A stretch of DNA of 38,179 nt, from positions 1 through 38,179 of the forward strand of contig CALVQP010000001.1 of assembly GCA_944358225.1 (NCBI GenBank), written 5' to 3'. This DNA comes from an uncultured Bacilli bacterium (lineage in GTDB: Bacteria; Bacillota_I; Bacilli_A; RF39; UBA660). Position numbers and translations under genes: made by a program. The notes under the pieces are model-generated. The model searched no databases. It saw nothing but the letters and a program-made list of their open reading frames with translations, and was not told the DNA's origin. Of this stretch, positions 190 through 20,376 are shown piece by piece (the first letter of the stretch is position 1; each line of letters opens with the position of its first letter).

Positions 190-195
190 ATAACC

Positions 196-390
196 AAGCG
201 AAGAAAAAAGAGTAGTAATATATCTTACTTAAGAAGAGACTTAGTGGTTGGTGAAAACTAAGAAGTATATATATGAACTTGCTTTTGGATGTGATAGGTT
301 AATCCCCTTTAGAAGATCTAAAGCTAGTAATTACTAGGAATTAAGGTGGTACCACGACATTTTCGTCCTTATGATGAAGATGTCTTTTTT
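196..390 (+). promoter_or_regulatory. T-box leader (tRNA-sensing attenuator), probably Leu-specific
   Basis: Stem-I-like GCGAAGAAAAAAGAGTAGTAA and a GGTGAAAA distal-loop motif are present. The candidate specifier is GAA-CTT-G (CTT at 278-280, a Leu codon). The T-box sequence AAGGTGGTACCACG (343-356) overlaps the 5' arm of the terminator. The gene downstream is leuS. Confidence 0.8.
356..390 (+). terminator. intrinsic terminator of the T-box leader
   Basis: A 12-bp stem GACATTTTCGTC (356-367) / GATGAAGATGTC (373-384, two G-U pairs) with loop CTTAT, followed by T6 (385-390). Confidence 0.8.
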
Positions 391-407: not shown

Positions 408-788
408 ATGATTTATAATTTGTGCTTTTTTGGAATTTTGCTTGTTATAAGCTTGTTAATATTTATTATTATGTATTTGCGTAATATCAAGAAAAATAGA
501 CCTAGTAAAATAGGAAGTATCAACTATCTAATTTCCAAGTTTAATTTGGATAAGAAAAAATTAAATTACAAGTTTTTAGCTTTTATAGCTAGTATTACAA
601 ATGCTTTTATTATTTCTTTTACATGTACTGTAATTAGTATCTTACCGCTTGATTTAATTTGGCAAATGTTAATTGGCTTTGTAATGCTTTTTATTCTAAT
701 ATATTTATTCTATGAGTTAATTGGTAGATATTGTTTAAAGAAAGGCTGGAAGAAAAATGGAACTAAATCATCAAAAAATCGAAAGTAA
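408..788 (+). CDS. small integral membrane protein (about three hydrophobic helices), unknown function
   Basis: ORF of 126 aa with GAAGGA 7 nt upstream of the ATG. It has three long hydrophobic stretches. It sits between the T-box terminator and leuS and overlaps the leuS start by 32 nt. Confidence 0.55.
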
Positions 789-3579
789 ATGGCAAAAATA
801 TTGGGAAGAAAACGAAACTTTTAAAACTGATATTTATGATTTCAGCAAACCTAAATACTATGTTTTAGATATGTTTCCTTATCCTTCAGGTGTTGGTCTT
901 CATGCTGGACATTGTGAAGGATATACGGCTACAGATATAGTTTCTAGAATGAAACGTATGCAGGGATATAATGTTTTACATCCTATGGGCTATGATTCTT
1001 TTGGATTACCAGCTGAACAATATGCAGTCCAAACGGGAAACCATCCCGATGGATTTACGCAAAAGAATGTTGCTTATTTTACGGAACAATTAAAATCTTT
1101 AGGATACGATTATGATTGGACTAAAACTTTGCAAACAAGTGATCCTAAATTTTATAAATGGACACAATGGATATTTAAACAACTATTCAAGGATGGTTAT
1201 GCCAAGTATGTTGATATGCCAGTTAATTGGTGTGAAGAGTTAGGTACAGTTTTATCAAACGACGAAGTTATTGATGGTAAAAGTGAGCGTGGTGGTTATC
1301 CAGTTGTGCGTAAAAATATGCGTCAGCTATGCATCGATCAAGTTGCTTTTGCTGAAGCGTTACTTTCTGGCTTGGATGAACTTGACTGGCCAGAGTCTAC
1401 CAAAGAAATTCAACGCAATTGGATTGGTAAAAGTATTGGCGCTCATGTTGATTTTAAAGTCAAAGGCTTTGACGAAAAATTTACAGTTTTTACTACGCGT
1501 TGCGATACTTTATACGGAGCAACTTATTGTGTTTTAGCTCCTGAGCACAAATTAGTGGAAAAAATTACAACTTTAGAGCAACAAAAAGAATTAAGGACTT
1601 ACCAAAAAGCTAATGCATCTAAAATATATTTAGAGAATATATAATTAAATAAAGAAAAAACTGGTGTATTTACAGGTGCTTATGCAATAAATCCTGTCAA
1701 TAATAAAGAAATACCTATTTACATAAGTGATTATGTCTTAGCAAGTTATGGTACTGGTGCAATAATGGCTGTTCCAGCACATGATACTAGAGATTACGAA
1801 TTTGCCAAAAAATTTAATATTCCCATTATTCAAGTTTTAGAAGAAGAAACTGGTACTAAAGTAGCAGGTGAAACCAAGAAAAAATCTATTGTTGCAATTT
1901 TATACGATGAAAACCAAGATAAATACTTAACATTAAATTGTCATGATCTAGGTGGTTATTTATTTATTGGTGGAACCGTAAAAGATGATGAAGATCCTCT
2001 AACTTGTGTCAAAAGAGAAATAGCCGAAGAAACTGGCTATACTGATATAAGACTTATTAGAGAACTACCCAAAATAAATCATCACTATTATGCTAAAAAT
2101 AAAGATATCTATTTTAATACTGAAGCAACAGGATATTTCTTTGCTCTTAATTCTTCCAAAAAAGAATCCTTAAAATTAGATGCTGATGAAGTATTTGATA
2201 TAATTTGGCAAACTAAAGAAGAAATTCTAAAAAATGTAACTGATCAGTTACATGCCAAAACGTTCTTGTACGCTTTAAAAGATACAGCTATGACAGAAGA
2301 TGGAATTCATATTAATTCGGAAATTCTTAATGGTTTAAATAAAGAGGAAGCTATAACTAAAATGTTAAAACATTTAGAAGAAATTAAAGCTGGTTCTAAG
2401 CAAGTTAATTACAAATTTCGCGAATGGATATTTGCTCGTCAAAGATATTGGGGAGAACCAGTACCTATAGTACACATGGAAGATAACACTGATATTGTCT
2501 TAGAAGATGAACAGTTGCCTCTTATTTTACCTAAATTAAATGACTATAAAGGTAAAAATGGCCAATCACCTTTAGAAAACGCTATAGAGTGGAAAAATTA
2601 TGTTTCTAAAGACGGTAAAAAAGGAAAAAGAGAAACATCAACTATGCCTGGAAGTGCTGGCTCTAGCTGGTATTATCTTCGTTATATCGATCCGCAAAAT
2701 GATAATATTTTCTGTGATCCTAAGTTAGCTAAACATTGGATGCCAGTAGATTTATATATGGGTGGTCCAGAACATGCTGTAGGACATTTAATTTATTCGC
2801 GTATTTGGAATCACTACCTATATGATAAAGGATATTCTCCCGTTAAAGAGCCATTTAAAAAATTAGTGCATCAAGGTATGATACTAGGAGAAAATGGAAT
2901 AAAAATGGGAAAACGTTATCCAGAGTATGCTATTGATCCTAAAGACATTGCCAAAAAGTACGGAGCTGATACTTTAAGATTATACTTAATGTTTATGGGA
3001 CCGATTGAAGCTAGTAAACCATGGAGTGCCAAAGGCGTAGAAGGGGCTTACAAATTTGTGCAAAGAGTATTTAGATTTTTTACTGATGCGAGTAAAATAG
3101 TAGAAAATAACGATGGATCTTTGGATAAAATCTATCATGCTACGGTAAAAAAAGTTACTAATGATTTTGAAGCTTTAGCATTTAATACGGCAATTAGCCA
3201 ACTAATGATTTTTGTTAATGAATGTTATAAAGTAGGTTATTGCTATAAAGAATATGCTTTAGGATTTATCAAAATGATTAGTTGTATTACACCACATGCG
3301 GGGGAAGAAATGTGGGAAATCATGGGTCAAAAGGATACCATTGCTTATGCATCTTGGCCAAAATATGATGAAAGTAAAATTATTGATAAAGATGTAAATA
3401 TTGCTGTATCTATTAATGGCAAGTTAAGAACTACATTTAAAGTACCAATAGATACATCTAAAGAAGAGTTAGAAAAACTAGCTCTTGCTAATGAAAAAAT
3501 TCAAAAATATATCCAAGATAAAACAATTGTTAAAATAATCGTAGTTGTTAATAAAATAGTTAATATTGTTTTAAAATAA
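757..3579 (+). CDS. leuS: leucine--tRNA ligase, interrupted by one in-frame TAA (1642-1644) and carrying a ~150-aa Nudix-domain insertion (about 1840-2283)
   Basis: ORFs 757-1644 and 1765-3579 are in the same frame, and codons 1645-1764 read [40 protein letters not shown], which is continuous LeuRS sequence. Class I motifs are present: HAGH (HIGH-like), [23 protein letters not shown] and a KMGKR (KMSKS-like) loop. The Nudix box lies at 1972-2040. Confidence 0.92.
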
Positions 3580-3587
3580 TAAAAGCC

Positions 3588-4181
3588 TCACTTAAAGAGG
3601 TTTTTATTTAGCTTTAAAATTATAATTCTTTGTACCTGACGCTTTAATATTCTTAAAGCAGAATAAATAAGGCTTAAACTATATAAATCTTTTAGTACAT
3701 CTTCTTTTGTAGCAAAAAAATCACTTTTAACAATTATTTGGTTTTTAAAAGAAAGTAGTTTTAAAATATTTAAATTTATTGCCTGCATTTCTGGAAAATT
3801 ATCTATAACAGCAGAACAATTAAATAATTTGCATGCTAAATTAGCCGTAGTACACCCCTTATTTGATTGATATAAACATTTTCGACAACAACCATTGCAT
3901 TTATTATTATCAAGTTTTCGTTGAATAAAACATTTATTTTCTTTAAAACTACAAATATTTTTACTAAAGGCTATCTTATCGATTTTAAAACAAGCCGTCT
4001 CATAAATAAATTTAATTCTTTCTTTGCGTTTTTTAATATTTAAACTCTTTAAAATTTCTAAAAAATCCTCATTTTGTATATTTTTTGAGGGTTTAAAATA
4101 AATATTATGATATAAAAAACTCTTATAAAATTTAAGATGTTTCCAAAAAAATTTATTATCAGATACTTCTTTGATTTTCAT
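3588..4181 (-). CDS. Cys-rich hypothetical protein (possibly YkgJ/UPF0153-like metal-binding)
   Basis: ORF of 197 aa with the cluster CNGCCRKCLYQSNKGCTTANLACKLFNC. Its stop lies within the convergent leuS terminator hairpin. Confidence 0.4.
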   Translation of the reverse strand: MKIKEVSDNKFFWKHLKFYKSFLYHNIYFKPSKNIQNEDFLEILKSLNIKKRKERIKFIYETACFKIDKIAFSKNICSFKENKCFIQRKLDNNKCNGCCRKCLYQSNKGCTTANLACKLFNCSAVIDNFPEMQAINLNILKLLSFKNQIIVKSDFFATKEDVLKDLYSLSLIYSALRILKRQVQRIIILKLNKNLFK

Positions 4182-5047: not shown

Positions 5048-5124
5048 TGGTAACCCGTATGGGATTCGAACCCACGTATACCACCTTGAGAGGGTGGCGT
5101 GTTCAACCACTTCACCAACGGGTC
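5048..5124 (-). tRNA. tRNA-Glu (anticodon CUC)
   Basis: Cloverleaf read by hand: acceptor GACCCGT/ACGGGTT, a 3-bp D stem typical of tRNA-Glu, anticodon arm CCACC-CTCTCAA-GGTGG, T arm GTGGG-TTCGAAT-CCCAT, and an encoded CCA. Confidence 0.8.
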
Positions 5125-5127
5125 ATA

Positions 5128-5203
5128 TGGTTGCCCCAGTTAGATTCGAACTAACGAAATGACGGGGTCAGAGCCCGTTGCCTTACCGCTTGGCTATGGG
5201 GCA
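5128..5203 (-). tRNA. tRNA-Gln (anticodon CUG)
   Basis: Acceptor TGCCCCA/TGGGGCA, D arm AGCCAAGCGGTAAGGC, anticodon arm ACGGG-CTCTGAC-CCCGT, T arm GTTAG-TTCGAAT-CTAAC, and an encoded CCA. Confidence 0.85.
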
Positions 5204-10162: not shown

Positions 10163-10236
10163 GCCCAATTAGTTTAGTGATAAAACAAATCCATGGTAAG
10201 GATTAGAGGACTGTTTGATTCAATCATTGGGCACCA
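10163..10236 (+). tRNA. atypical tRNA-like gene, anticodon GGU (Thr) if functional
   Basis: Acceptor GCCCAAT/ATTGGGC is perfect (7 bp). D stem GTTT/AAAC has loop AGTGATA with no GG. Anticodon arm is AATCC-ATGGTAA-GGATT. T arm GACTG-TTTGATT-CAATC has one mismatch and T instead of C56. ACCA is encoded. Confidence 0.55.
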
Positions 10237-10237
10237 T

Positions 10238-10313
10238 GCTGAAATAGCTCAGTTGGTAGAGCAATTCACTCGTAATGAATAGGTCGCAAGTTCAAGTCTT
10301 GTTTTCAGCACCA
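10238..10313 (+). tRNA. tRNA-Thr (anticodon CGU)
   Basis: Canonical GCTGAAATAGCTCAGTTGGTAGAGC D arm, anticodon arm ATTCA-CTCGTAA-TGAAT, T arm GCAAG-TTCAAGT-CTTGT, and an encoded CCA. Confidence 0.9.
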
Positions 10314-10925: not shown

Positions 10926-11104
10926 AACATCTTTATATGAAGAAGATTATGATTATGAATATGATGATTACGAAGAAGATAAAAACAAAGATGATGATAT
11001 GGATATGAGTTTGTAAACTTGCAAAAATATATAAAGGAGATTATTAAGTATCTAATGCATAATGAAAAAATATGATAAAATATATATTGATAGGAGTAAT
11101 AGTA

Positions 11105-12262
11105 ATGAAGAAAAAGATTATTCTTACATTATGTATTATATTAGTTTTCGTAGCAGGGTTATTGATTGGTACTTTTGTTTTATCTAAAAATAAAGAAATT
11201 GAAACTAATGAAGAAAAAATTACAAATATTGATATTAAATATAATAATGGAGAAAAATATTATATTATTAAAGATGATTATAAAGGTGCATATGACTACC
11301 AAGAAATAGATTTATCGAACGATTATGGTAATTATGAAGAAGTAAACGATAAAATTAAATTATTTAATACTACAGAAATACTTAACTATAGTCAATATTC
11401 TAAGTTTTGTGAAAAATGGAACTTAAAAAGGAAATATAATGATACTAGTAAAAATTATATGATAGTAGCATACGCTTCTTATGGACAGCCAATTGTAGAA
11501 GCAAGACTTGCAAATGCTATTGAAGACGATGGGAAAGTAGTATTATATATGTGGGAAAATACTCGCGGTGTTACAGCAGATATTGGAGCTTATTTTCTAG
11601 CCATACCTGTTAAACTAGATACATATCAAAACGAGATAAACATTGCTTATACTAATGAGGAATATAATAATATTGTTAAATATGGTTCTATTCAAGACCC
11701 AAGTACAATGACAGTAGATAAACCAATTATATATATTTATCCAAAAGAAGAAACAAAAGTAAATATAAAATTATTAAATTCATCATTATTAACTACCTCA
11801 TACCCTAAATATAATAACGGATGGAATGTTATTGCACAACCAGATGGAATATTAAAAGAAATCGAAACTAATAAAAATTATTATGGGTTATATTATGAAG
11901 GAAAAAATCATTATGTAACTATGAAAAATGATGGATTCGTAGTTAAAGGTGAAGATACAATAGAATTTTTAGAAGAAAAACTTGAAATACTAGGACTAAA
12001 CGAAAGAGAAATAAATGAATTTATAATATATTGGCTACCTAAGTTAGAAAACAATAGATATAATTATATTAGATTTGAGACTTTAGAAGAAATTGAGAAA
12101 TATATGCCACTTGAAATAACACCAAAACCTGATACTGTTATTAGAGTCGTTATGGATTATAAACCATTAAATAAAAAAATAAGAATAGAAGAACAAAAAT
12201 TAACGCCTCAAAAACGAGTTGGATATAGTGTTATTGAATGGGGTGGAAGTGAAATAAAATAG
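11105..12262 (+). CDS. membrane-anchored hypothetical protein
   Basis: ORF with TAGGAG 9 nt upstream of the ATG at 11105 (MKKKIILTLCIILVFVAGLLIG, signal anchor). I recognise no domain. Confidence 0.6.
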   Translation: MKKKIILTLCIILVFVAGLLIGTFVLSKNKEIETNEEKITNIDIKYNNGEKYYIIKDDYKGAYDYQEIDLSNDYGNYEEVNDKIKLFNTTEILNYSQYSKFCEKWNLKRKYNDTSKNYMIVAYASYGQPIVEARLANAIEDDGKVVLYMWENTRGVTADIGAYFLAIPVKLDTYQNEINIAYTNEEYNNIVKYGSIQDPSTMTVDKPIIYIYPKEETKVNIKLLNSSLLTTSYPKYNNGWNVIAQPDGILKEIETNKNYYGLYYEGKNHYVTMKNDGFVVKGEDTIEFLEEKLEILGLNEREINEFIIYWLPKLENNRYNYIRFETLEEIEKYMPLEITPKPDTVIRVVMDYKPLNKKIRIEEQKLTPQKRVGYSVIEWGGSEIK

Positions 12263-15322: not shown

Positions 15323-18199
15323 ATGAATTTTGAAACATTAATAAACAAACTACCTATTTTACCTATGAATAAAGCTATTAAGCTATTGGAAGATTATCAA
15401 GAAAAAATTGGCTTTAAAACCTTTGCAGAGCAACAAAGAGCTTTAGATATTTTCATGCATAAAAATAATGTTTTAGAAAAGATAAAAAAAGAAGTTTTTA
15501 ATGAAGCATTTATGAATTTAGCCTTTATGGTTAAAGATAGATCTTTATGGAGTAATGCTGCCTTTGAAAATATTAAAAGATATCCCATGATTATTTGGAT
15601 AGAATGTATCGGTGTAATGAAAGAGGAGCAAATAGTGTCCTTACTTAATAATTATGGTAAAGAATTACCATCTTCTTTAATTGGTTTATGCGTTATTAAT
15701 TTACCAGAAGACACACAATTAAAAGCATTAGAACAATATAAAAAATATCTAAAAGTCGATGATGGGCTATTTTCTAATCTTTATTATTCTTTAAGCGATA
15801 AAGCCAAACTAAAATTAAAAGAATTCTTTCCTAACAAAATAGCTGATGATATCTTATTAGAATTAGAAGATTTAAATGAAGAAGATATATTGGCAAAACT
15901 AACCACCGAACATGAAAGTTTAATGAAATTAGCTGCTGATGATTTGGTAGAATTTATACTTTTAAAATCCCGCAAATTAGATACTTTAACTAAATTCTTA
16001 GAAATATTTAGTGAAAAAATAAATGAATGCTCCATATTTAAATTCAAATTGCTAATTACTAGATACAGGTATTTAGCTAATTATAGAAGTAATCAGTATT
16101 TTGATGATGAAGAACAAGAAAGTAAAATGTTAACTGACAGTGCTTTGTTCCAATTATTTAAAAATAAATTCCGTCAGATTGGTGTTGAACAAACCCTTTT
16201 ACTATTCGATAATAAAACATTTTACAATAGTAATAAATTTACAGCTGATGTTATATTTGAATTTTTAGACATTGCTTATTCTAGTAATGATCTATCCAAA
16301 TATATTAACGACGAAACTAAAATAGAAATTATTACTAGATTTGTAAAAAAATGTAATAATCAAGATTACTCCCTTGCAGATTTAAAAAAATTAGTAAAAG
16401 ATATAGGAAAGGATGGAAAATCAAAATTAATATTTGATGATTATATTGAAGCAATGATTGCCTGCGGAAAACTTTTAAAAGAAAATGTTTTAACGTCCCA
16501 AGATCCTTTGTTTTTAGAATTAAGAAATAAATTTAGTACTGATTTATTAAAAAGAAGTCAAAAAGATGGTACATATAAAGAAAATATCTCTTTAAATGGT
16601 ATATTTTATAGATTAACAAAAGGTAGCATGCCCTTTGAAAAAGTTTATATAACCAAAACCTATAAAGGGTTAATTTACTTAACTAAATGTGGACAACTAT
16701 TTGATAATGCTGATTATATAACCCAGTTTTTAACAGATGAACAACTTGCTAAACTAAATATAACCCCCGTTTTAAAATGGAAAAATAATATTAATAGGAC
16801 TAACACCAAGAAAGATAGTTTATCTTTTGAACAAAGAATGGGATTACAATTATTATGTTATTTTGGAAAAGATAAAGCTAAATATTTATTAGAATCTAAC
16901 ATGCAAGGTAATAGAATGGAAAATTTATTTGATGGTTTAAAACACGAAAATATTTCTATAAACGAAGATGGTACACCAAATATAAATCAAGAACTTGTTA
17001 ATTTTCTTTTTAAAAAAGGAGCGATGAAAGAATCTAATTCTGTAATTAATAGAATGATAGGAGGGGATATTGCTCCCTTTGAAAAATATTTTCCAGAATT
17101 TTGTAATTCTTTTGAAAAAGTAAAAAAATCATGCAACGGAATTTTAAGTGTTAAAAGAATTGTTAAATATTTTGAAGATATAGAGTTGCCAATAAAACTA
17201 AAACCAGATGAAATAGAATTTAAACAAGCTTTAAAAGAAATGAATACAATAGATCTAACTTTATTATCAGAAGCAATAGGATTATGCAAAGATGCAAGAA
17301 ACAGAGGCTATTCATCTATACCTAAAGTAGAGGGAAAGTTAGGAGATTTTACATATAAAATATTAGATTTAACTGATCCCATGGCAATTGCTGTAGGGTA
17401 TTTAACACATTGTTGTTTTGTAGTTAAAGGACTATCTTATTCAGCTTTAAAACATTCCATGCAATCAAGAAATGGAAGAACGTTTGTTGTTTATTACAAG
17501 GGGCGCTTTCTAGCTCAAAGTTGGGTATGGCGTAATGGTGATGTCATTTGCTTTGATAGTGTTGAAGCAAATAGATCATGTCGTGAAATATACAAAGATG
17601 ATATTAAATTAGTTGATGTATATAAAAAAGCTGCCAATCAAATATTAGATATTTCTCAAGATCAAGAAGATGATAGCCAAAAAGTTAAAGTTGTCACTGT
17701 TGGTCGCTCTGATGATACATTTGACGATTTAAAAAATGTCGAAATTGCTGTCCCTAGACCATTAGAAAGTGATGTTTACGTTCATGATTCACATAGACAG
17801 CAAATATTAGCTGGAGCAATTCCTAAAAAACCAAGATATGGTATTGTTGGCGCTCAATATAAAGATCCTCGCCAAAAAGTAGTATTTATTAATGATGTAG
17901 AAAGTACTGATATAGAAACTTTAGATGAAATAATAGTTAATATAAATTCTCTAAGGTATCAAATTAATAAAGAAGAAACTCCGTTAGATTTTACTATTTA
18001 TAACAAAATAATTTCCGGAGATGGCTGGTATATTTTAGTTAAATATGATGGAACTATTGAAAGCGCAGCTTTAAACAAAAACGAAGATGTAAAAATTGAG
18101 TATAATAATTATTTAGCTAGATTTATTGATACTAAAACAATTGATAATAACGAGTCATTTGTAAAAAGATTAAAACCACTAAGTGGCTATAGAAGATAA
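15323..18199 (+). CDS. large hypothetical protein (958 aa): long helical N-terminal region plus a C-terminal His/Cys-motif module
   Basis: Uninterrupted 958-codon ORF with a good RBS. Residues ~665-830 read FTYKILDLTDPMAIAVGYLTHCCFVVKG...RTFVVYYKGRFLAQSWVWRNGDVICFDSVE. This faintly recalls PcfJ-like proteins of conjugative elements (an HC[VC] motif), a resemblance from memory only. No Walker A or nuclease motif is seen. Confidence 0.85.
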   Translation: MNFETLINKLPILPMNKAIKLLEDYQEKIGFKTFAEQQRALDIFMHKNNVLEKIKKEVFNEAFMNLAFMVKDRSLWSNAAFENIKRYPMIIWIECIGVMKEEQIVSLLNNYGKELPSSLIGLCVINLPEDTQLKALEQYKKYLKVDDGLFSNLYYSLSDKAKLKLKEFFPNKIADDILLELEDLNEEDILAKLTTEHESLMKLAADDLVEFILLKSRKLDTLTKFLEIFSEKINECSIFKFKLLITRYRYLANYRSNQYFDDEEQESKMLTDSALFQLFKNKFRQIGVEQTLLLFDNKTFYNSNKFTADVIFEFLDIAYSSNDLSKYINDETKIEIITRFVKKCNNQDYSLADLKKLVKDIGKDGKSKLIFDDYIEAMIACGKLLKENVLTSQDPLFLELRNKFSTDLLKRSQKDGTYKENISLNGIFYRLTKGSMPFEKVYITKTYKGLIYLTKCGQLFDNADYITQFLTDEQLAKLNITPVLKWKNNINRTNTKKDSLSFEQRMGLQLLCYFGKDKAKYLLESNMQGNRMENLFDGLKHENISINEDGTPNINQELVNFLFKKGAMKESNSVINRMIGGDIAPFEKYFPEFCNSFEKVKKSCNGILSVKRIVKYFEDIELPIKLKPDEIEFKQALKEMNTIDLTLLSEAIGLCKDARNRGYSSIPKVEGKLGDFTYKILDLTDPMAIAVGYLTHCCFVVKGLSYSALKHSMQSRNGRTFVVYYKGRFLAQSWVWRNGDVICFDSVEANRSCREIYKDDIKLVDVYKKAANQILDISQDQEDDSQKVKVVTVGRSDDTFDDLKNVEIAVPRPLESDVYVHDSHRQQILAGAIPKKPRYGIVGAQYKDPRQKVVFINDVESTDIETLDEIIVNINSLRYQINKEETPLDFTIYNKIISGDGWYILVKYDGTIESAALNKNEDVKIEYNNYLARFIDTKTIDNNESFVKRLKPLSGYRR

Positions 18200-19194: not shown

Positions 19195-20376
19195 ATGACT
19201 ATTGAAGAAAAAAACAACTATATTGAAGAGTATATAAAAAATATTGCTGAAAAAAATCCTGATATTTTTACCCAAGCAATAATTCAAAGGGTTATTGAAA
19301 AATTTAGAGATAGTGAGGAATCTTTAGAGGAATTAATTTCAAAAATTAACTTAATTGCTAATGAATTTTTAGAGAAAAATATTGAACAAAGAAAATATTT
19401 ACAAATAATGAGCCAGAAATTCAACGATTCGAATTATCAGGTAAAAAATATTATTAGTATTGATATATCGAATTTAGCTTATTCTCAAATGGAAGATTTA
19501 TTTTTTCATTATAGTTGGAAAAAATATTTGGAATTCTATGATAAAAATGGTATGGTTCCAGTTATTGGGGAAAATTCTAAAGGAATAGATCCGGAAACGA
19601 GTATATTTTTTTCGAAAGGTATAGAGGGGGTTCTTGAATTATGGGATGTTTGGCTAAAATGGAGACTAGATAGACAAAATAATCCAAAATATCAAGGAAA
19701 TACACCAGAAGAAATGCAAAGAACTATCAACAGATTTATTTCAGGTGATATAACAGAAGATGAACGCAAAAAATGGTATTATTGGATTGAATTTTTTAAA
19801 GATAAACAATATTTGCAAAATGAAACTATGATGAAAAAATTGTTTGAATATCAATATACTGAAATGATAAATAGTGATTATCTTATAATGGATTTAAAAG
19901 AAAATGAAGAATTTAGATACGACCAAATTGATATAAAAAAATTATGGGTAATACAAGAAGCTAATAAAAATGAAAAAGGTATTAATCCGTTTAGAGCAGC
20001 TATGTATGGAGCATATAGTGACTTTACAACTCCGATTGCTGATAAATGGAATATGCAAACAATTCCGGGTAAAAATATAGTTATTGAGCCAAATAGATTA
20101 AAAAGATTAAGTATTCATGGAAAAACTGATGTTTATTCTATTATTAAATTTATGTATGATAAATATAAAACTGAAATACCAAAAGAACAACAAGTGAAAT
20201 TTGACATTTTAGATGATTATATTAAATATATTGAAGAAAAGAAAAATCTAAGAATAGAAGATGAAATGTTAAGAAAAACTGATGAATTAGAGCAATTGCT
20301 TTCTACTATTGAATCAACTTCTTTATTATCTAGTCAAGAAACATATAGTACGTATAGTCAAAACCCACATAGATAA
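19195..20376 (+). CDS. hypothetical protein (393 aa)
   Basis: TAGGAG RBS and a TATAAT about 20 nt upstream. I recognise no motif. The same frame stays open again from 20389 to 20694 after two stops. Confidence 0.75.
   Translation: MTIEEKNNYIEEYIKNIAEKNPDIFTQAIIQRVIEKFRDSEESLEELISKINLIANEFLEKNIEQRKYLQIMSQKFNDSNYQVKNIISIDISNLAYSQMEDLFFHYSWKKYLEFYDKNGMVPVIGENSKGIDPETSIFFSKGIEGVLELWDVWLKWRLDRQNNPKYQGNTPEEMQRTINRFISGDITEDERKKWYYWIEFFKDKQYLQNETMMKKLFEYQYTEMINSDYLIMDLKENEEFRYDQIDIKKLWVIQEANKNEKGINPFRAAMYGAYSDFTTPIADKWNMQTIPGKNIVIEPNRLKRLSIHGKTDVYSIIKFMYDKYKTEIPKEQQVKFDILDDYIKYIEEKKNLRIEDEMLRKTDELEQLLSTIESTSLLSSQETYSTYSQNPHR

What the first reader, a model, noticed from the sequence alone, without database searches (positions are those of the whole stretch)
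1840..2283. Complete Nudix hydrolase domain inserted inside the LeuRS editing (CP1) region
About 150 extra codons sit between the conserved [16 protein letters not shown] motif and the [13 protein letters not shown] segment. Bacillus and E. coli LeuRS, as I remember them, have only a short linker there. The insert contains a letter-perfect Nudix box GX5EX7REUXEEXGU, read as [23 protein letters not shown] at 1972-2040. It is flanked by strand-like segments ([15 protein letters not shown]) as expected of a full Nudix fold. The insert is in frame and LeuRS sequence resumes normally after it. Aminoacyl-tRNA synthetases generate aminoacyl-adenylates and ApnA, which are classic Nudix substrate classes. 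An in-cis pyrophosphohydrolase could therefore hydrolyse Ap4A, mis-activated adenylates or a nucleotide alarmone. I do not know of a described LeuRS-Nudix fusion.
Basis: partly seen in the sequence, partly recalled or inferred. Interest (0 to 1): 0.78.

Follow-up and report, generated by a model that had tools for sequence, protein, structure and literature searches.

The report
Nudix hydrolase domain inside LeuRS

Summary
About 149 codons (nt 1843-2289) interrupt a surface loop of the LeuRS CP1 editing domain. They are a bona fide Nudix domain: Pfam PF00293 at E=1.5e-13, a perfect Nudix box at 1972-2040, and an AlphaFold model with pLDDT 87.

It is not a chimera. At least 291 species-representative genomes carry the insert at the same site, mostly uncultured gut Bacilli, and CPR-type LeuRS proteins carry it too. 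It is under purifying selection as strong as the rest of the enzyme. Related loci show tandem copies, a free-standing "dead CP1 + Nudix" gene next to an ordinary leuS in the same T-box operon, or no Nudix at all.

Databases name these proteins only "leucine--tRNA ligase", and I found no paper on them.

The substrate is unknown. Weak sequence and fold similarity (Ap4A hydrolases, RppH, Dcp2) and an acidic surface favour a small cap-like dinucleoside polyphosphate such as Ap4A. This is inference.

It lies in a 75-nt patch of 14 clustered substitutions that conspecific assemblies lack; they encode an intact 940-aa protein.

The parts
193..373 (+). T-box leader; the specifier reads CUU (Leu) at 278-280, followed by a purine
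   Evidence: Rfam RF00230, 98.1 bits against a gathering score of 93. Sequence read. A terminator-like hairpin plus T-run ends near nt 390.
408..788 (+). Small hydrophobic ORF (126 aa), first gene of the T-box operon, overlapping the leuS start by 32 nt
   Evidence: No Pfam or PADLOC family. Homologous 114-143 aa ORFs sit at the same place in L011, L081, L083, L090-L096, upstream of leuS with or without the Nudix.
757..1644 (+). leuS 5' part (codons 1-295 plus in-frame TAA): catalytic core with HIGH motif (HAGH) and the first third of CP1 including the T-rich motif TTRCDT
1591..1665 (+). Window-specific patch of 14 substitutions in 75 nt, including GAA->TAA at 1642-1644. It changes ...EVRAYQKACASKSDLERTEL... 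to ...[19 protein letters not shown]...
   Evidence: Nucleotide comparison with conspecific L090 and L091. 14 of the 15 differences from L091 across 2823 nt fall here. 10 of the 14 destroy a G or C and none creates one. The patch is identical in Logan contig L001.
1645..3579 (+). leuS remainder (codons 297-940 plus stop): rest of CP1 (GTG...AVPAHD), Nudix insert, return strand, KMSKS variant KMGKR, anticodon-binding and C-terminal domains. The first ATG after the stop is at 1765.
1414..1842 (+). CP1 editing domain, part before the insert (aa 220-362)
   Evidence: PF13603 at aa 220-370 matches profile positions 1-150 of 185. The modelled CP1 matches the S. pneumoniae LeuRS editing domain 4k47 with target-normalised TM 0.94 and rmsd 2.5.
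1843..2289 (+). Nudix hydrolase domain insert (aa 363-511), including the conserved entry linker E-x-T-G
   Evidence: PF00293 E=1.5e-13. AlphaFold pLDDT 87, pTM 0.82. Foldseek probability 1.0 to many Nudix structures. 60 positions are at least 97% conserved in 73 species.
1972..2040 (+). Nudix box GX5EX7REUXEEXGU = [23 protein letters not shown]
   Evidence: Direct reading. G406, E412, R420, E421, E424, E425 and G427 are at least 97% conserved across 73 species.
2077..2103 (+). Subfamily signature INHHYYAKN(K), 12-21 residues after the box; Tyr444 and Tyr445 lie at +16 and +17
   Evidence: Invariant H, Y, A and K in alignment A1. This motif was the search pattern that retrieved 291 genomes.
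2290..2391 (+). CP1 return segment ([15 protein letters not shown]... helix) leading back to the catalytic core
   Evidence: Alignment with no-insert LeuRS. Model secondary structure.

Best explanation
What it is (shown): a bacterial leucyl-tRNA synthetase gene with a complete Nudix pyrophosphohydrolase domain inserted into a surface loop near the C-terminal end of the CP1 editing domain. The editing motifs (TTRCDT, GTG, AVPAHD) and all Nudix catalytic residues are intact. AlphaFold models the two domains as one confidently packed unit. The gene belongs to a large, previously undescribed LeuRS-Nudix family found in uncultured gut Bacilli and in CPR-type bacteria. It is expressed from a Leu-specific T-box operon.

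How it most likely works (inferred): the Nudix domain is an active Mg2+-dependent hydrolase of a small, cap-like nucleoside-5'-polyphosphate compound. The best guess is a dinucleoside polyphosphate such as Ap4A or Ap3A, which aminoacyl-tRNA synthetases make when ATP attacks the enzyme-bound aminoacyl-adenylate. Mounting the hydrolase on LeuRS, or encoding it beside leuS, ties removal of these by-products or alarmones to the amount of synthetase made when tRNA-Leu is uncharged.

In this particular assembly the gene is interrupted by a TAA inside a short hypermutated patch. Conspecific strains have the intact 940-aa protein.
For: Domain identity:
- PF00293 E=1.5e-13, PF13603 and TIGR00396 hits.
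- The Nudix-only model has pLDDT 87 and pTM 0.82.
- The CP1+Nudix model has pLDDT 86.7 and pTM 0.80, with high confidence through both linkers.
- The CP1 part superposes on 4k47 at target-normalised TM 0.94.

Not an artefact, and functional:
- At least 291 GTDB species genomes carry the insert.
- 73 of the best 80 loci have an uninterrupted 937-957-codon frame through it.
- Nei-Gojobori omega is 0.23 for the Nudix, 0.24 for CP1 and 0.25 for the rest of the enzyme. Mean pairwise identity is 70%, 71% and 65% respectively.
- Box residues and an extra acidic pair D477/E478 are at least 97% conserved.

Linkage to aaRS genes:
- A free-standing CP1+Nudix gene lies between the T-box and an ordinary leuS.
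- Stand-alone members of the same Nudix subfamily lie directly upstream of a ValRS gene (L085) and of a MetRS-like fragment (L088).
- Of the 150 best 50%-identity cluster representatives of the subfamily, 91 are LeuRS.

Substrate class:
- The best single-sequence PDB hit is CT771, which the literature cites as an asymmetric Ap4A hydrolase.
- Profile hits are Dcp2 and AvrM14 decapping enzymes.
- Fold neighbours include RppH (also solved bound to Ap4A), MutT1 and the Aquifex Ap4A hydrolase at target-normalised TM 0.82.
- Conserved Tyr residues lie at +16/+17 after the box. From memory, this matches the ApnA-hydrolase signature of Dunn et al. 1999.
- The domain is acidic (median pI 4.9, net charge -10), which argues against direct RNA-backbone binding.
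Against: - No enzymatic data exist.
- All similarities to characterised Nudix enzymes are weak: E about 1e-5 to 1e-6 and 14-22% identity. Every NCBIfam equivalog scores far below its cut-off, for example RppH 24 bits against 118. The subfamily is therefore distinct and its specificity is not transferable.
- To my knowledge LeuRS is not a prominent Ap4A producer.
- A plain small-molecule hydrolase would not obviously need the CP1 scaffold, yet the free-standing form keeps a catalytically dismantled CP1.
- Copy number varies from 0 to 3 among close relatives. That pattern looks more like an accessory or protective function than core metabolism.
- I had no model coordinates, so the distance between the Nudix site and the editing site is unknown.
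Confidence: 0.4

Rival explanations
1. tRNA-end or LeuRS-protecting module. CP1 acts as an adaptor that brings the Nudix domain to tRNA-Leu or LeuRS. There it removes a pyrophosphate-linked adduct, for example a 3'-pyrophosphorylated CCA end made by toxic alarmone-synthetase toxins or an ADP-ribose-type modification, or it destroys a nucleotide-mimic inhibitor.
For: - The Nudix is always mounted on CP1, the domain that binds the tRNA 3' end.
- The free-standing form keeps a CP1 scaffold whose editing residues are lost (TTRPDT -> VKEVDT, the YGTGA stretch deleted, AHD -> AHN) while the Nudix box is kept.
- Presence, absence and copy number (0-3) vary among close relatives in a syntenic locus. 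Such variation is typical of accessory or protective functions.
- The subfamily also neighbours other class Ia synthetase genes.
- RppH and Dcp2 are among the nearest relatives.
Against: - The Nudix domain is strongly acidic (net charge about -10), which is unfavourable for binding RNA.
- The free-standing CP1 has lost the GTG stretch of the editing pocket, so A76 binding may be lost too.
- No toxin gene lies beside it in the loci examined.
- No Nudix enzyme that acts on tRNA 3' pyrophosphate appeared in the literature search.
Confidence: 0.15
2. A housekeeping Nudix enzyme (nucleotide sanitation, ADP-ribose, NAD(H) and the like) with no mechanistic link to leucylation. It is fused to, or encoded beside, an essential and well-expressed gene in small genomes.
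For: - Stand-alone members of the subfamily exist without any synthetase neighbour (L086).
- 48 of the 150 best cluster representatives have no aaRS part.
- Some close relatives do without it entirely.
- The T. thermophilus ADP-ribose pyrophosphatase is among the sequence hits.
Against: - The same internal loop is used across distant lineages, which an in-frame accidental fusion would not predict.
- CP1 is retained in the detached form.
- Selection on the Nudix is as strong as on the synthetase.
- 61% of the best representatives are LeuRS.
Confidence: 0.2
3. A non-catalytic ligand-sensing or structural domain that modulates CP1 movement, editing or aminoacylation in response to a nucleotide, comparable to the Nudix-like effector domains of NrtR regulators.
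For: - The predicted CP1-Nudix interface is rigid (pTM 0.80).
- Some copies in multi-Nudix LeuRS proteins and in P0027 have degenerate boxes (REI -> AEI in copy 2 of P0121, RE -> RG in P0027).
Against: The full catalytic box and additional acidic residues are at least 97% conserved in 73 species and in the window. Pure binding domains usually lose them.
Confidence: 0.1
4. The window's own copy is a pseudogene or an assembly or sequencing artefact at nt 1591-1665. Whatever the family does, this copy would not make full-length LeuRS-Nudix.
For: - There is an in-frame TAA at 1642-1644.
- 14 clustered substitutions are confined to 75 nt, against 1 elsewhere in 2823 nt relative to L091.
- The same sequence appears in the Logan contig of run ERR14964826.
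Against: - The rest of the gene is intact and nearly identical to intact conspecific genes.
- The 40 codons after the stop match the family consensus.
- leuS is normally essential and no second copy is visible in the window.
- The two assemblies may derive from the same reads, so they may not be independent.
Confidence: 0.45

Closest known systems
Canonical bacterial LeuRS with CP1 editing domain (for example S. pneumoniae CP1, PDB 4k47; T. thermophilus 1obh/2bte; E. coli 4aq7/4arc)
   Same: Same enzyme family (TIGR00396) and the same CP1 fold (target-normalised TM 0.94 to 4k47). The T-rich, GTG and AVPAHD editing motifs are conserved.
   Different: None of the Foldseek matches among solved LeuRS structures carries an extra domain at this loop. 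Here a linker of about 9 residues is replaced by a Nudix domain of about 149 residues. The window's lineage also has KMGKR instead of KMSKS and lacks the four zinc-binding cysteines seen in the main gut-Bacilli clade.
Nudix-type asymmetric Ap4A hydrolases / NudH-RppH group (C. trachomatis CT771 4ilq; Aquifex aq_158 3i7u; E. coli RppH 4s2x, 7sp3)
   Same: Minimal single-domain Nudix fold, complete box, aromatic residues 16-17 positions after the box. These are the best sequence hit (CT771) and among the best fold hits.
   Different: Only 14-22% identity. Scores fall below every NCBIfam equivalog cut-off. The insert has its own signature (ETGxP...SIVAIV...LTINW...GGxLFIGG...INHHYYAxNK), an acidic surface, and is embedded in another domain.
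Dcp2 / AvrM14 mRNA-decapping Nudix domains
   Same: Best PDB hits with the family profile (E about 3e-6). The substrates are cap-like 5'-5' polyphosphate bridges, the same chemical class as Ap4A.
   Different: These are eukaryotic RNA-binding enzymes with extra regulatory domains. The similarity is weak and no RNA-binding surface is evident here.
Class Ia synthetases with an appended accessory enzyme domain (for example NCBIfam NF040702, 'isoleucine--tRNA ligase, N-acetyltransferase domain-containing')
   Same: A housekeeping class Ia aaRS that has acquired a second catalytic domain. I know this family only from its listing.
   Different: It has a different partner domain (GNAT). I did not examine its position or function.
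Free-standing trans-editing proteins (AlaX, ProX/YbaK, D-Tyr-tRNA deacylase)
   Same: The 276-302-aa CP1+Nudix proteins are editing-domain homologues detached from their synthetase.
   Different: Their editing catalytic residues are dismantled, so they are unlikely to deacylate tRNA. The conserved active site is the Nudix one.

Membership tests
Nudix hydrolase superfamily (PF00293) | Profile HMM match above the curated threshold | tested here: met
   46.8 bits in the whole protein and 51.3 bits (E=1.5e-13) for the insert alone, against a gathering score of 21.1.
Nudix hydrolase superfamily (PF00293) | Nudix box GX5EX7REUXEEXGU with the catalytic Glu residues | tested here: met
   G406-TVKDD-E412-DPLTCVK-R420E421-I-A-E424E425-T-G427-Y428 at nt 1972-2040. 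These residues are at least 97% conserved in 73 species.
Nudix hydrolase superfamily (PF00293) | Alpha/beta/alpha sandwich Nudix fold | tested here: met
   AlphaFold pLDDT 87, pTM 0.82. 465 PDB matches at E<=0.001; the top hits have probability 1.0 and TM 0.6-0.8.
Nudix hydrolase superfamily (PF00293) | Mg2+/Mn2+-dependent hydrolysis of a nucleoside diphosphate-X bond | not testable with these tools
   Needs recombinant protein.
Bacterial leucyl-tRNA synthetase (TIGR00396 leuS_bact) | Equivalog HMM above its cut-off | tested here: met
   969.6 bits against 548.4, in two stretches split by the insert.
Bacterial leucyl-tRNA synthetase (TIGR00396 leuS_bact) | Class I signature motifs HIGH and KMSKS | tested here: inconclusive
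   HIGH = HAGH is present. KMSKS is KMGKR in the window, in its conspecifics and in P0306, while the main clade has KMSKS. The second Lys is kept and the variant is fixed in the lineage, but its activity is untested.
Bacterial leucyl-tRNA synthetase (TIGR00396 leuS_bact) | CP1 editing motifs (T-rich TTRxDT, GTG, conserved Asp of AVPAHD) | tested here: met
   [19 protein letters not shown].
Bacterial leucyl-tRNA synthetase (TIGR00396 leuS_bact) | One uninterrupted coding sequence | tested here: not met
   TAA at codon 296 in the window. The criterion is met in conspecific P0268-P0271, L090 and L091 and in 73 other species.
Nudix-type Ap4A hydrolase / NudH-RppH | Match to a curated equivalog model | tested here: not met
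   RppH models score 24 bits or less against cut-offs of 116-259. MutT scores 24 bits against 97.9.
Nudix-type Ap4A hydrolase / NudH-RppH | Tyr 16-18 residues downstream of the Nudix box (criterion recalled from Dunn et al. 1999, not re-read here) | tested here: met
   Y444 and Y445 are 16 and 17 residues after Y428. Y444 and Y445 are at least 97% conserved in the 73 species. In the nine-sequence alignment only the first Tyr is invariant; the second is Tyr or Phe.
Nudix-type Ap4A hydrolase / NudH-RppH | Ap4A (or 5'-ppp / Np4-RNA) hydrolysis | not testable with these tools
   Only weak similarity to CT771 (E=5e-5) and to Aquifex 3i7u (target-normalised TM 0.82).
RppH-like RNA pyrophosphohydrolase | Basic RNA-binding surface | tested here: not met
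   Insert pI is 5.2 in the window and a median of 4.9 across the family, with net charge -6 to -10. This uses overall charge only as a proxy; no surface map was available.
Trans-editing CP1-like deacylase (for the free-standing CP1+Nudix paralogue) | Retention of the editing catalytic residues | tested here: not met
   TTRPDT -> VKEVDT, the five-residue YGTGA stretch deleted, AHD -> AHN in P0006-P0023.

The most novel reading that the evidence does not exclude
CP1+Nudix is a self-contained, evolutionarily mobile accessory module. It occurs embedded once, in tandem up to three times, detached with a catalytically dead CP1, or lost. It uses the CP1 scaffold to dock on tRNA-Leu or LeuRS and provides a protective or repair activity. 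Examples would be removing pyrophosphate- or ADP-ribose-type adducts from the tRNA acceptor end, or destroying a nucleotide-mimic LeuRS poison. That would be a new kind of quality control attached to an aminoacyl-tRNA synthetase, distinct from amino-acid proofreading.
Probability: 0.12. Interest if true: 0.85.

Novelty: new variant of a known kind. Interest (0 to 1): 0.62.

Why it matters
Bacterial aminoacyl-tRNA synthetases rarely acquire whole extra catalytic domains, and the CP1 editing domain is a validated antibiotic target (benzoxaboroles).

Here a second hydrolase with an intact active site sits inside CP1 in hundreds of uncultured gut and candidate-phyla species. It is kept under selection as strong as on the synthetase itself. 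It also exists as a detached "dead CP1 + Nudix" gene in the same leucine-sensing operon.

If the Nudix degrades Ap4A-type by-products, it would be a direct physical link between tRNA charging and alarmone or dinucleotide turnover. If it acts on tRNA or on inhibitors, it would be a new layer of translational quality control.

Either outcome can be tested with one recombinant protein. The natural series (embedded, tandem, detached, absent) is a ready-made comparative experiment.

Tried and rejected
1. Alternative genetic code or recoded stop. Rejected: every Trp in the LeuRS translation shown by table 11 is TGG, no TGA interrupts that frame, the other window ORFs are long under table 11, and relatives have Glu (GAA) at the stop position.

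2. A naturally split LeuRS conserved in relatives. Rejected:
   - the break in L011 is a run of N;
   - L082 has a TGA at a different codon on a contig with 3x coverage;
   - 73 of 80 species and all conspecifics are uninterrupted.

3. Assembly chimera for the insert. Rejected because hundreds of independent assemblies carry it at the same site.

4. Assigning a substrate from curated families. NCBIfam equivalogs all score far below their cut-offs. PADLOC gives only a weak generic Nudix hit, PDC-S07 at 24 bits. PDB sequence and fold hits are spread over Ap4A hydrolase, RppH, MutT1, ADP-ribose pyrophosphatase and Dcp2. Nothing is decisive.

5. Geometry of the two active sites. The structure tool returns no coordinates, so only confidence values (pTM 0.80) could be used.

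6. Literature. Five full-text searches pairing Nudix with leucyl-tRNA synthetase, LeuRS, aminoacyl-tRNA synthetase + domain architecture + fusion, CP1 domain, or tRNA + CCA end + pyrophosphorylation found nothing on this architecture. Subscription-only papers were not searchable.

7. Leu-AMP as substrate. I considered it unlikely on chemical grounds, because an acyl-phosphate is not a nucleoside diphosphate-X linkage. This rests on my own knowledge.
Full report
**1. Checking the observation**

Under table 11 the frame starting at nt 757 translates as a bacterial leucyl-tRNA synthetase. It matches TIGR00396 at 969.6 bits against a cut-off of 548.4, and the match is split into two stretches.

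Pfam places the LeuRS editing domain PF13603 at residues 220-370, but only profile positions 1-150 of 185 are matched. A NUDIX domain PF00293 follows immediately at residues 376-496. It scores 46.8 bits in the whole protein and 51.3 bits (E=1.5e-13) for the excised 148 residues, against a gathering score of 21.1.

The 23-residue box [23 protein letters not shown] fits GX5EX7REUXEEXGU and lies exactly at nt 1972-2040.

A close LeuRS without the insert (P0031) reads [24 protein letters not shown] at this point. The window therefore has about 149 residues (aa 363-511, nt 1843-2289) in place of a linker of about nine residues.

**2.

Codon 296 is TAA (nt 1642-1644). The frame is therefore two ORFs, 757-1644 and 1765-3579.

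An exact-sequence look-up showed that both pieces cluster with four 940-residue proteins from other assemblies. Those proteins read ...EVRAYQKACASKSDLERTELNKEKTG... where the window reads ...[25 protein letters not shown]....

At the nucleotide level the window differs from conspecific locus L091 at 15 of 2823 positions. Fourteen of these are packed into nt 1591-1665. Ten of the fourteen destroy a G or C and none creates one.

The same patch is present in a Logan contig of run ERR14964826, which is identical to the window over 4475 nt. That contig may come from the same reads.

The stop is therefore a strain- or assembly-specific anomaly, not a property of the gene family. I could not determine its cause. 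Two apparent breaks in relatives do not support a conserved split either:
- The break in L011 is a run of N.
- L082 has a TGA at a different codon on a contig with 3x coverage.

**3. The insert is real, widespread and constrained**

A scan of one genome per GTDB species with the subfamily motif [IM][NH][HA]HY[YF]Ax[NS]K found 291 genomes that encode a relative. This is a lower bound, because only one motif was used.

The best 80 are almost all uncultured gut Bacilli, "Tenericutes" or Mycoplasmatota MAGs from rabbit, chicken, rumen and human samples. They also include Clostridium sp. CAG:451 and Candidatus Onthocola.
- In 73 of the 80, the stop-to-stop frame through the insert is 937-957 codons.
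- The exceptions are contig ends, the N-run in L011, and one free-standing gene.

A search with the intact conspecific protein returned more than 100 clusters at 90% identity of full-length LeuRS carrying PF00293, some with hundreds of members. The few that carry a name are called only "leucine--tRNA ligase".

Across the 73 species:
- The Nudix box and 60 positions of the insert are at least 97% conserved.
- Nei-Gojobori omega is 0.23 for the Nudix, 0.24 for CP1 and 0.25 for the rest of the enzyme.
- Mean pairwise identity is 70%, 71% and 65% respectively.

The absolute omega values are probably inflated by saturation of synonymous sites. The comparison between regions is the informative result.

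**4. Structure**

- The insert alone models as a standard Nudix sandwich with pLDDT 87 and pTM 0.82.
- The CP1+Nudix segment of the intact conspecific sequence models with pLDDT 86.7 and pTM 0.80. Both linkers have high confidence, which suggests a fixed interface.
- The CP1 part superposes on the S. pneumoniae LeuRS editing domain (4k47; target-normalised TM 0.94, rmsd 2.5).
- All top hits are LeuRS structures, and the alignments leave a gap of about 140 columns for the insert.
- No coordinates were available, so I could not measure the relative placement of the Nudix and editing active sites.

**5. A wider family with informative variants**

A profile search of 1.84 billion cluster representatives found 277 with E<=1e-10. 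I classified the best 150:

| Class | Number |
|---|---|
| LeuRS with one Nudix | 80 |
| LeuRS with two Nudix | 9 |
| LeuRS with three Nudix | 2 |
| CP1 fragment plus Nudix | about 10 |
| No synthetase part | 48 |
| ValRS-like | 1 |

In most of the single-copy LeuRS with sequence on both sides of the insert, it falls at the same CP1 position. Extra copies sit either in tandem at that site (P0306) or at the junction between the catalytic core and CP1 (P0121). CPR-type sequences such as Candidatus Liptonbacteria are included.

In loci that share the gene order (GH31 gene, small ORF, leuS) I saw four states:
- Embedded Nudix (L011).
- Tandem double Nudix (L095).
- No Nudix at all, with a 799-aa LeuRS (L092-L094).
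- A separate gene of 284-302 aa made of CP1 plus Nudix, lying between the T-box and small ORF and an ordinary 806-809-aa leuS (L083, L081).

In the free-standing proteins the editing site is dismantled: TTRPDT becomes VKEVDT, the YGTGA stretch is deleted, and AHD becomes AHN. The Nudix box is kept.

Stand-alone members of the same Nudix subfamily also lie directly upstream of a ValRS gene (L085) and of a MetRS-like fragment (L088). One other (L086) has no synthetase neighbour.

**6. Regulation**

A T-box leader lies at nt 193-373 (98 bits). Its specifier reads CUU (Leu) at 278-280. It precedes a conserved 126-aa hydrophobic ORF (408-788), which overlaps the start of leuS. The Nudix-bearing enzyme is therefore induced when tRNA-Leu is uncharged.

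**7. Mechanism**

Shown:
- The Nudix catalytic residues are intact and conserved.
- The editing motifs are intact in the embedded form.
- The Nudix packs confidently on CP1 in the model.
- It is genetically linked to leuS and, in the detached form (L081, L083), shares the same T-box operon.

Inferred: the substrate.
- The nearest characterised relatives are all weak matches. They are CT771 (E=5e-5), which is cited as an asymmetric Ap4A hydrolase; Dcp2 and AvrM14 with the family profile (E about 3e-6); and, by fold, RppH, MutT1 and the Aquifex Ap4A hydrolase.
- What these enzymes share is hydrolysis of cap-like nucleoside-5'-polyphosphate bridges.
- Conserved Tyr residues at +16/+17 after the box fit the diadenosine-polyphosphate signature as I recall it.
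- The domain is acidic (median pI 4.9, net charge -10), which argues against direct RNA binding.

I therefore favour a small dinucleoside polyphosphate such as Ap4A, a known side product of aminoacyl-adenylate chemistry, as the substrate. I put about 0.3-0.4 on this mechanistic part. I put more than 0.95 on the anatomical description.

Points against the favoured mechanism:
- The detached form retains a dead CP1 scaffold.
- Copy number varies from zero to three among close relatives.

Both fit better with a docking-dependent, accessory or protective role. I keep that as the main rival and as the novel case.

**8. Comparison with what is known, and novelty**

The protein is a member of the Nudix superfamily and of bacterial LeuRS by every sequence and fold test I could run. 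It is not a member of any curated Nudix equivalog family.

Among the Foldseek matches to solved LeuRS structures, none aligns a domain at this loop. Five literature searches found no description. Subscription-only papers could not be searched.

The architecture is visible in automated Pfam annotations of metagenomic proteins, so it is "in the databases" but apparently uncharacterised. I rate it a new variant of a known kind.

**9. Verdict**

The clade-level frequency removes any claim that this window is unique, but it strengthens the biological case. The window's own copy carries an unexplained nonsense patch that needs read-level checking. Interest 0.62.

Noticed in passing
window 1591-1665: Fourteen substitutions are clustered in 75 nt relative to conspecific genes. 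Ten destroy a G or C and none creates one. They include the GAA->TAA stop at 1642-1644. Only one other difference occurs in the remaining 2748 nt of leuS relative to L091. The cause is unknown: mutational cluster, minority allele or artefact.
   Followed up: partly
window 408-788 (+); also L011 2783-3214, L081 4352-4714, L083 7649-8014, L090 2652-3032, L092 3588-4001, L095 2654-2998: A conserved small hydrophobic protein (114-143 aa, C-terminal motif NAFIIS...YEL.GR...KKGWKK) is always encoded between the Leu T-box and leuS and overlaps the leuS start. It is present whether or not the LeuRS carries a Nudix. It has no Pfam or PADLOC family.
   Followed up: partly
L083 8001-8855 and L081 4650-5558: A free-standing CP1+Nudix gene (284-302 aa) lies directly upstream of an ordinary 806-809-aa leuS in one T-box operon. 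Its editing motifs are dismantled and its Nudix box is intact.
   Followed up: yes
P0306 / L095 3001-6318; P0121, P0124, P0131-P0133, P0139, P0143, P0159, P0170: LeuRS proteins of 1100-1283 aa carry two or three Nudix domains. These sit in tandem at the same CP1 loop or at the core/CP1 junction. Some copies have degenerate boxes.
   Followed up: partly
L085 711-1175 and 1180-3462; L088 40-552 and 562-1218: Stand-alone Nudix proteins of the same subfamily sit 4-40 nt upstream of a ValRS gene and of a MetRS-like C-terminal fragment on CPR-like contigs. TsaD lies upstream in L085.
   Followed up: partly
window 2908-2922 (KMGKR) and about 1230-1330 (zinc-motif region): The window's LeuRS lineage has KMGKR instead of KMSKS. 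It lacks the four cysteines (CxxC...CxxC) present in the main gut-Bacilli LeuRS-Nudix clade. Both features are shared with P0306, and the missing cysteines also with P0019 and P0031. The Nudix insert therefore occurs on two different LeuRS backbones.
   Followed up: partly
window codons 395, 408, 418, 483, 497 (nt 1939-2247): Among five conspecific sequences, 5 of the 9 amino-acid polymorphisms outside the patch fall in the Nudix domain, which is about 16% of the protein's length. They include W395C and A418V at positions that are at least 97% conserved in other species.
   Followed up: partly
window 3588-4181 (-): A 197-aa cysteine-rich ORF (CNGCCRKC...C...C) lies convergent with leuS. It has no Pfam family and is conserved at the same place in conspecific loci L090 and L091.
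   Followed up: no
window 15323-18199, 11072-12262, 19195-20376 (+): Large ORFs (958, 396 and 393 aa) have no Pfam match at E<=0.001.
   Followed up: no
window 5048-5203 (-) and 10163-10313 (+): Two tRNA gene pairs: Glu(CTC)+Gln(CTG) and Thr(GGT)+Thr(CGT).
   Followed up: no
L082 36-38: The short contig (3x coverage) that encodes P0001, the top-scoring hit of the first protein search, has an in-frame TGA aligned with a Cys of relatives, ten codons upstream of the window's stop position. This could be a sequencing error or a TGA=Trp organism.
   Followed up: no
P0075, P0085, P0005, P0129: Several database proteins join LeuRS-Nudix fragments to unrelated sequence: an outer-membrane-like protein, a ClpB C-terminus, an alpha/beta hydrolase. 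These are probably chimeric contigs or frame errors. They show that automated architectures for this family need care.
   Followed up: no
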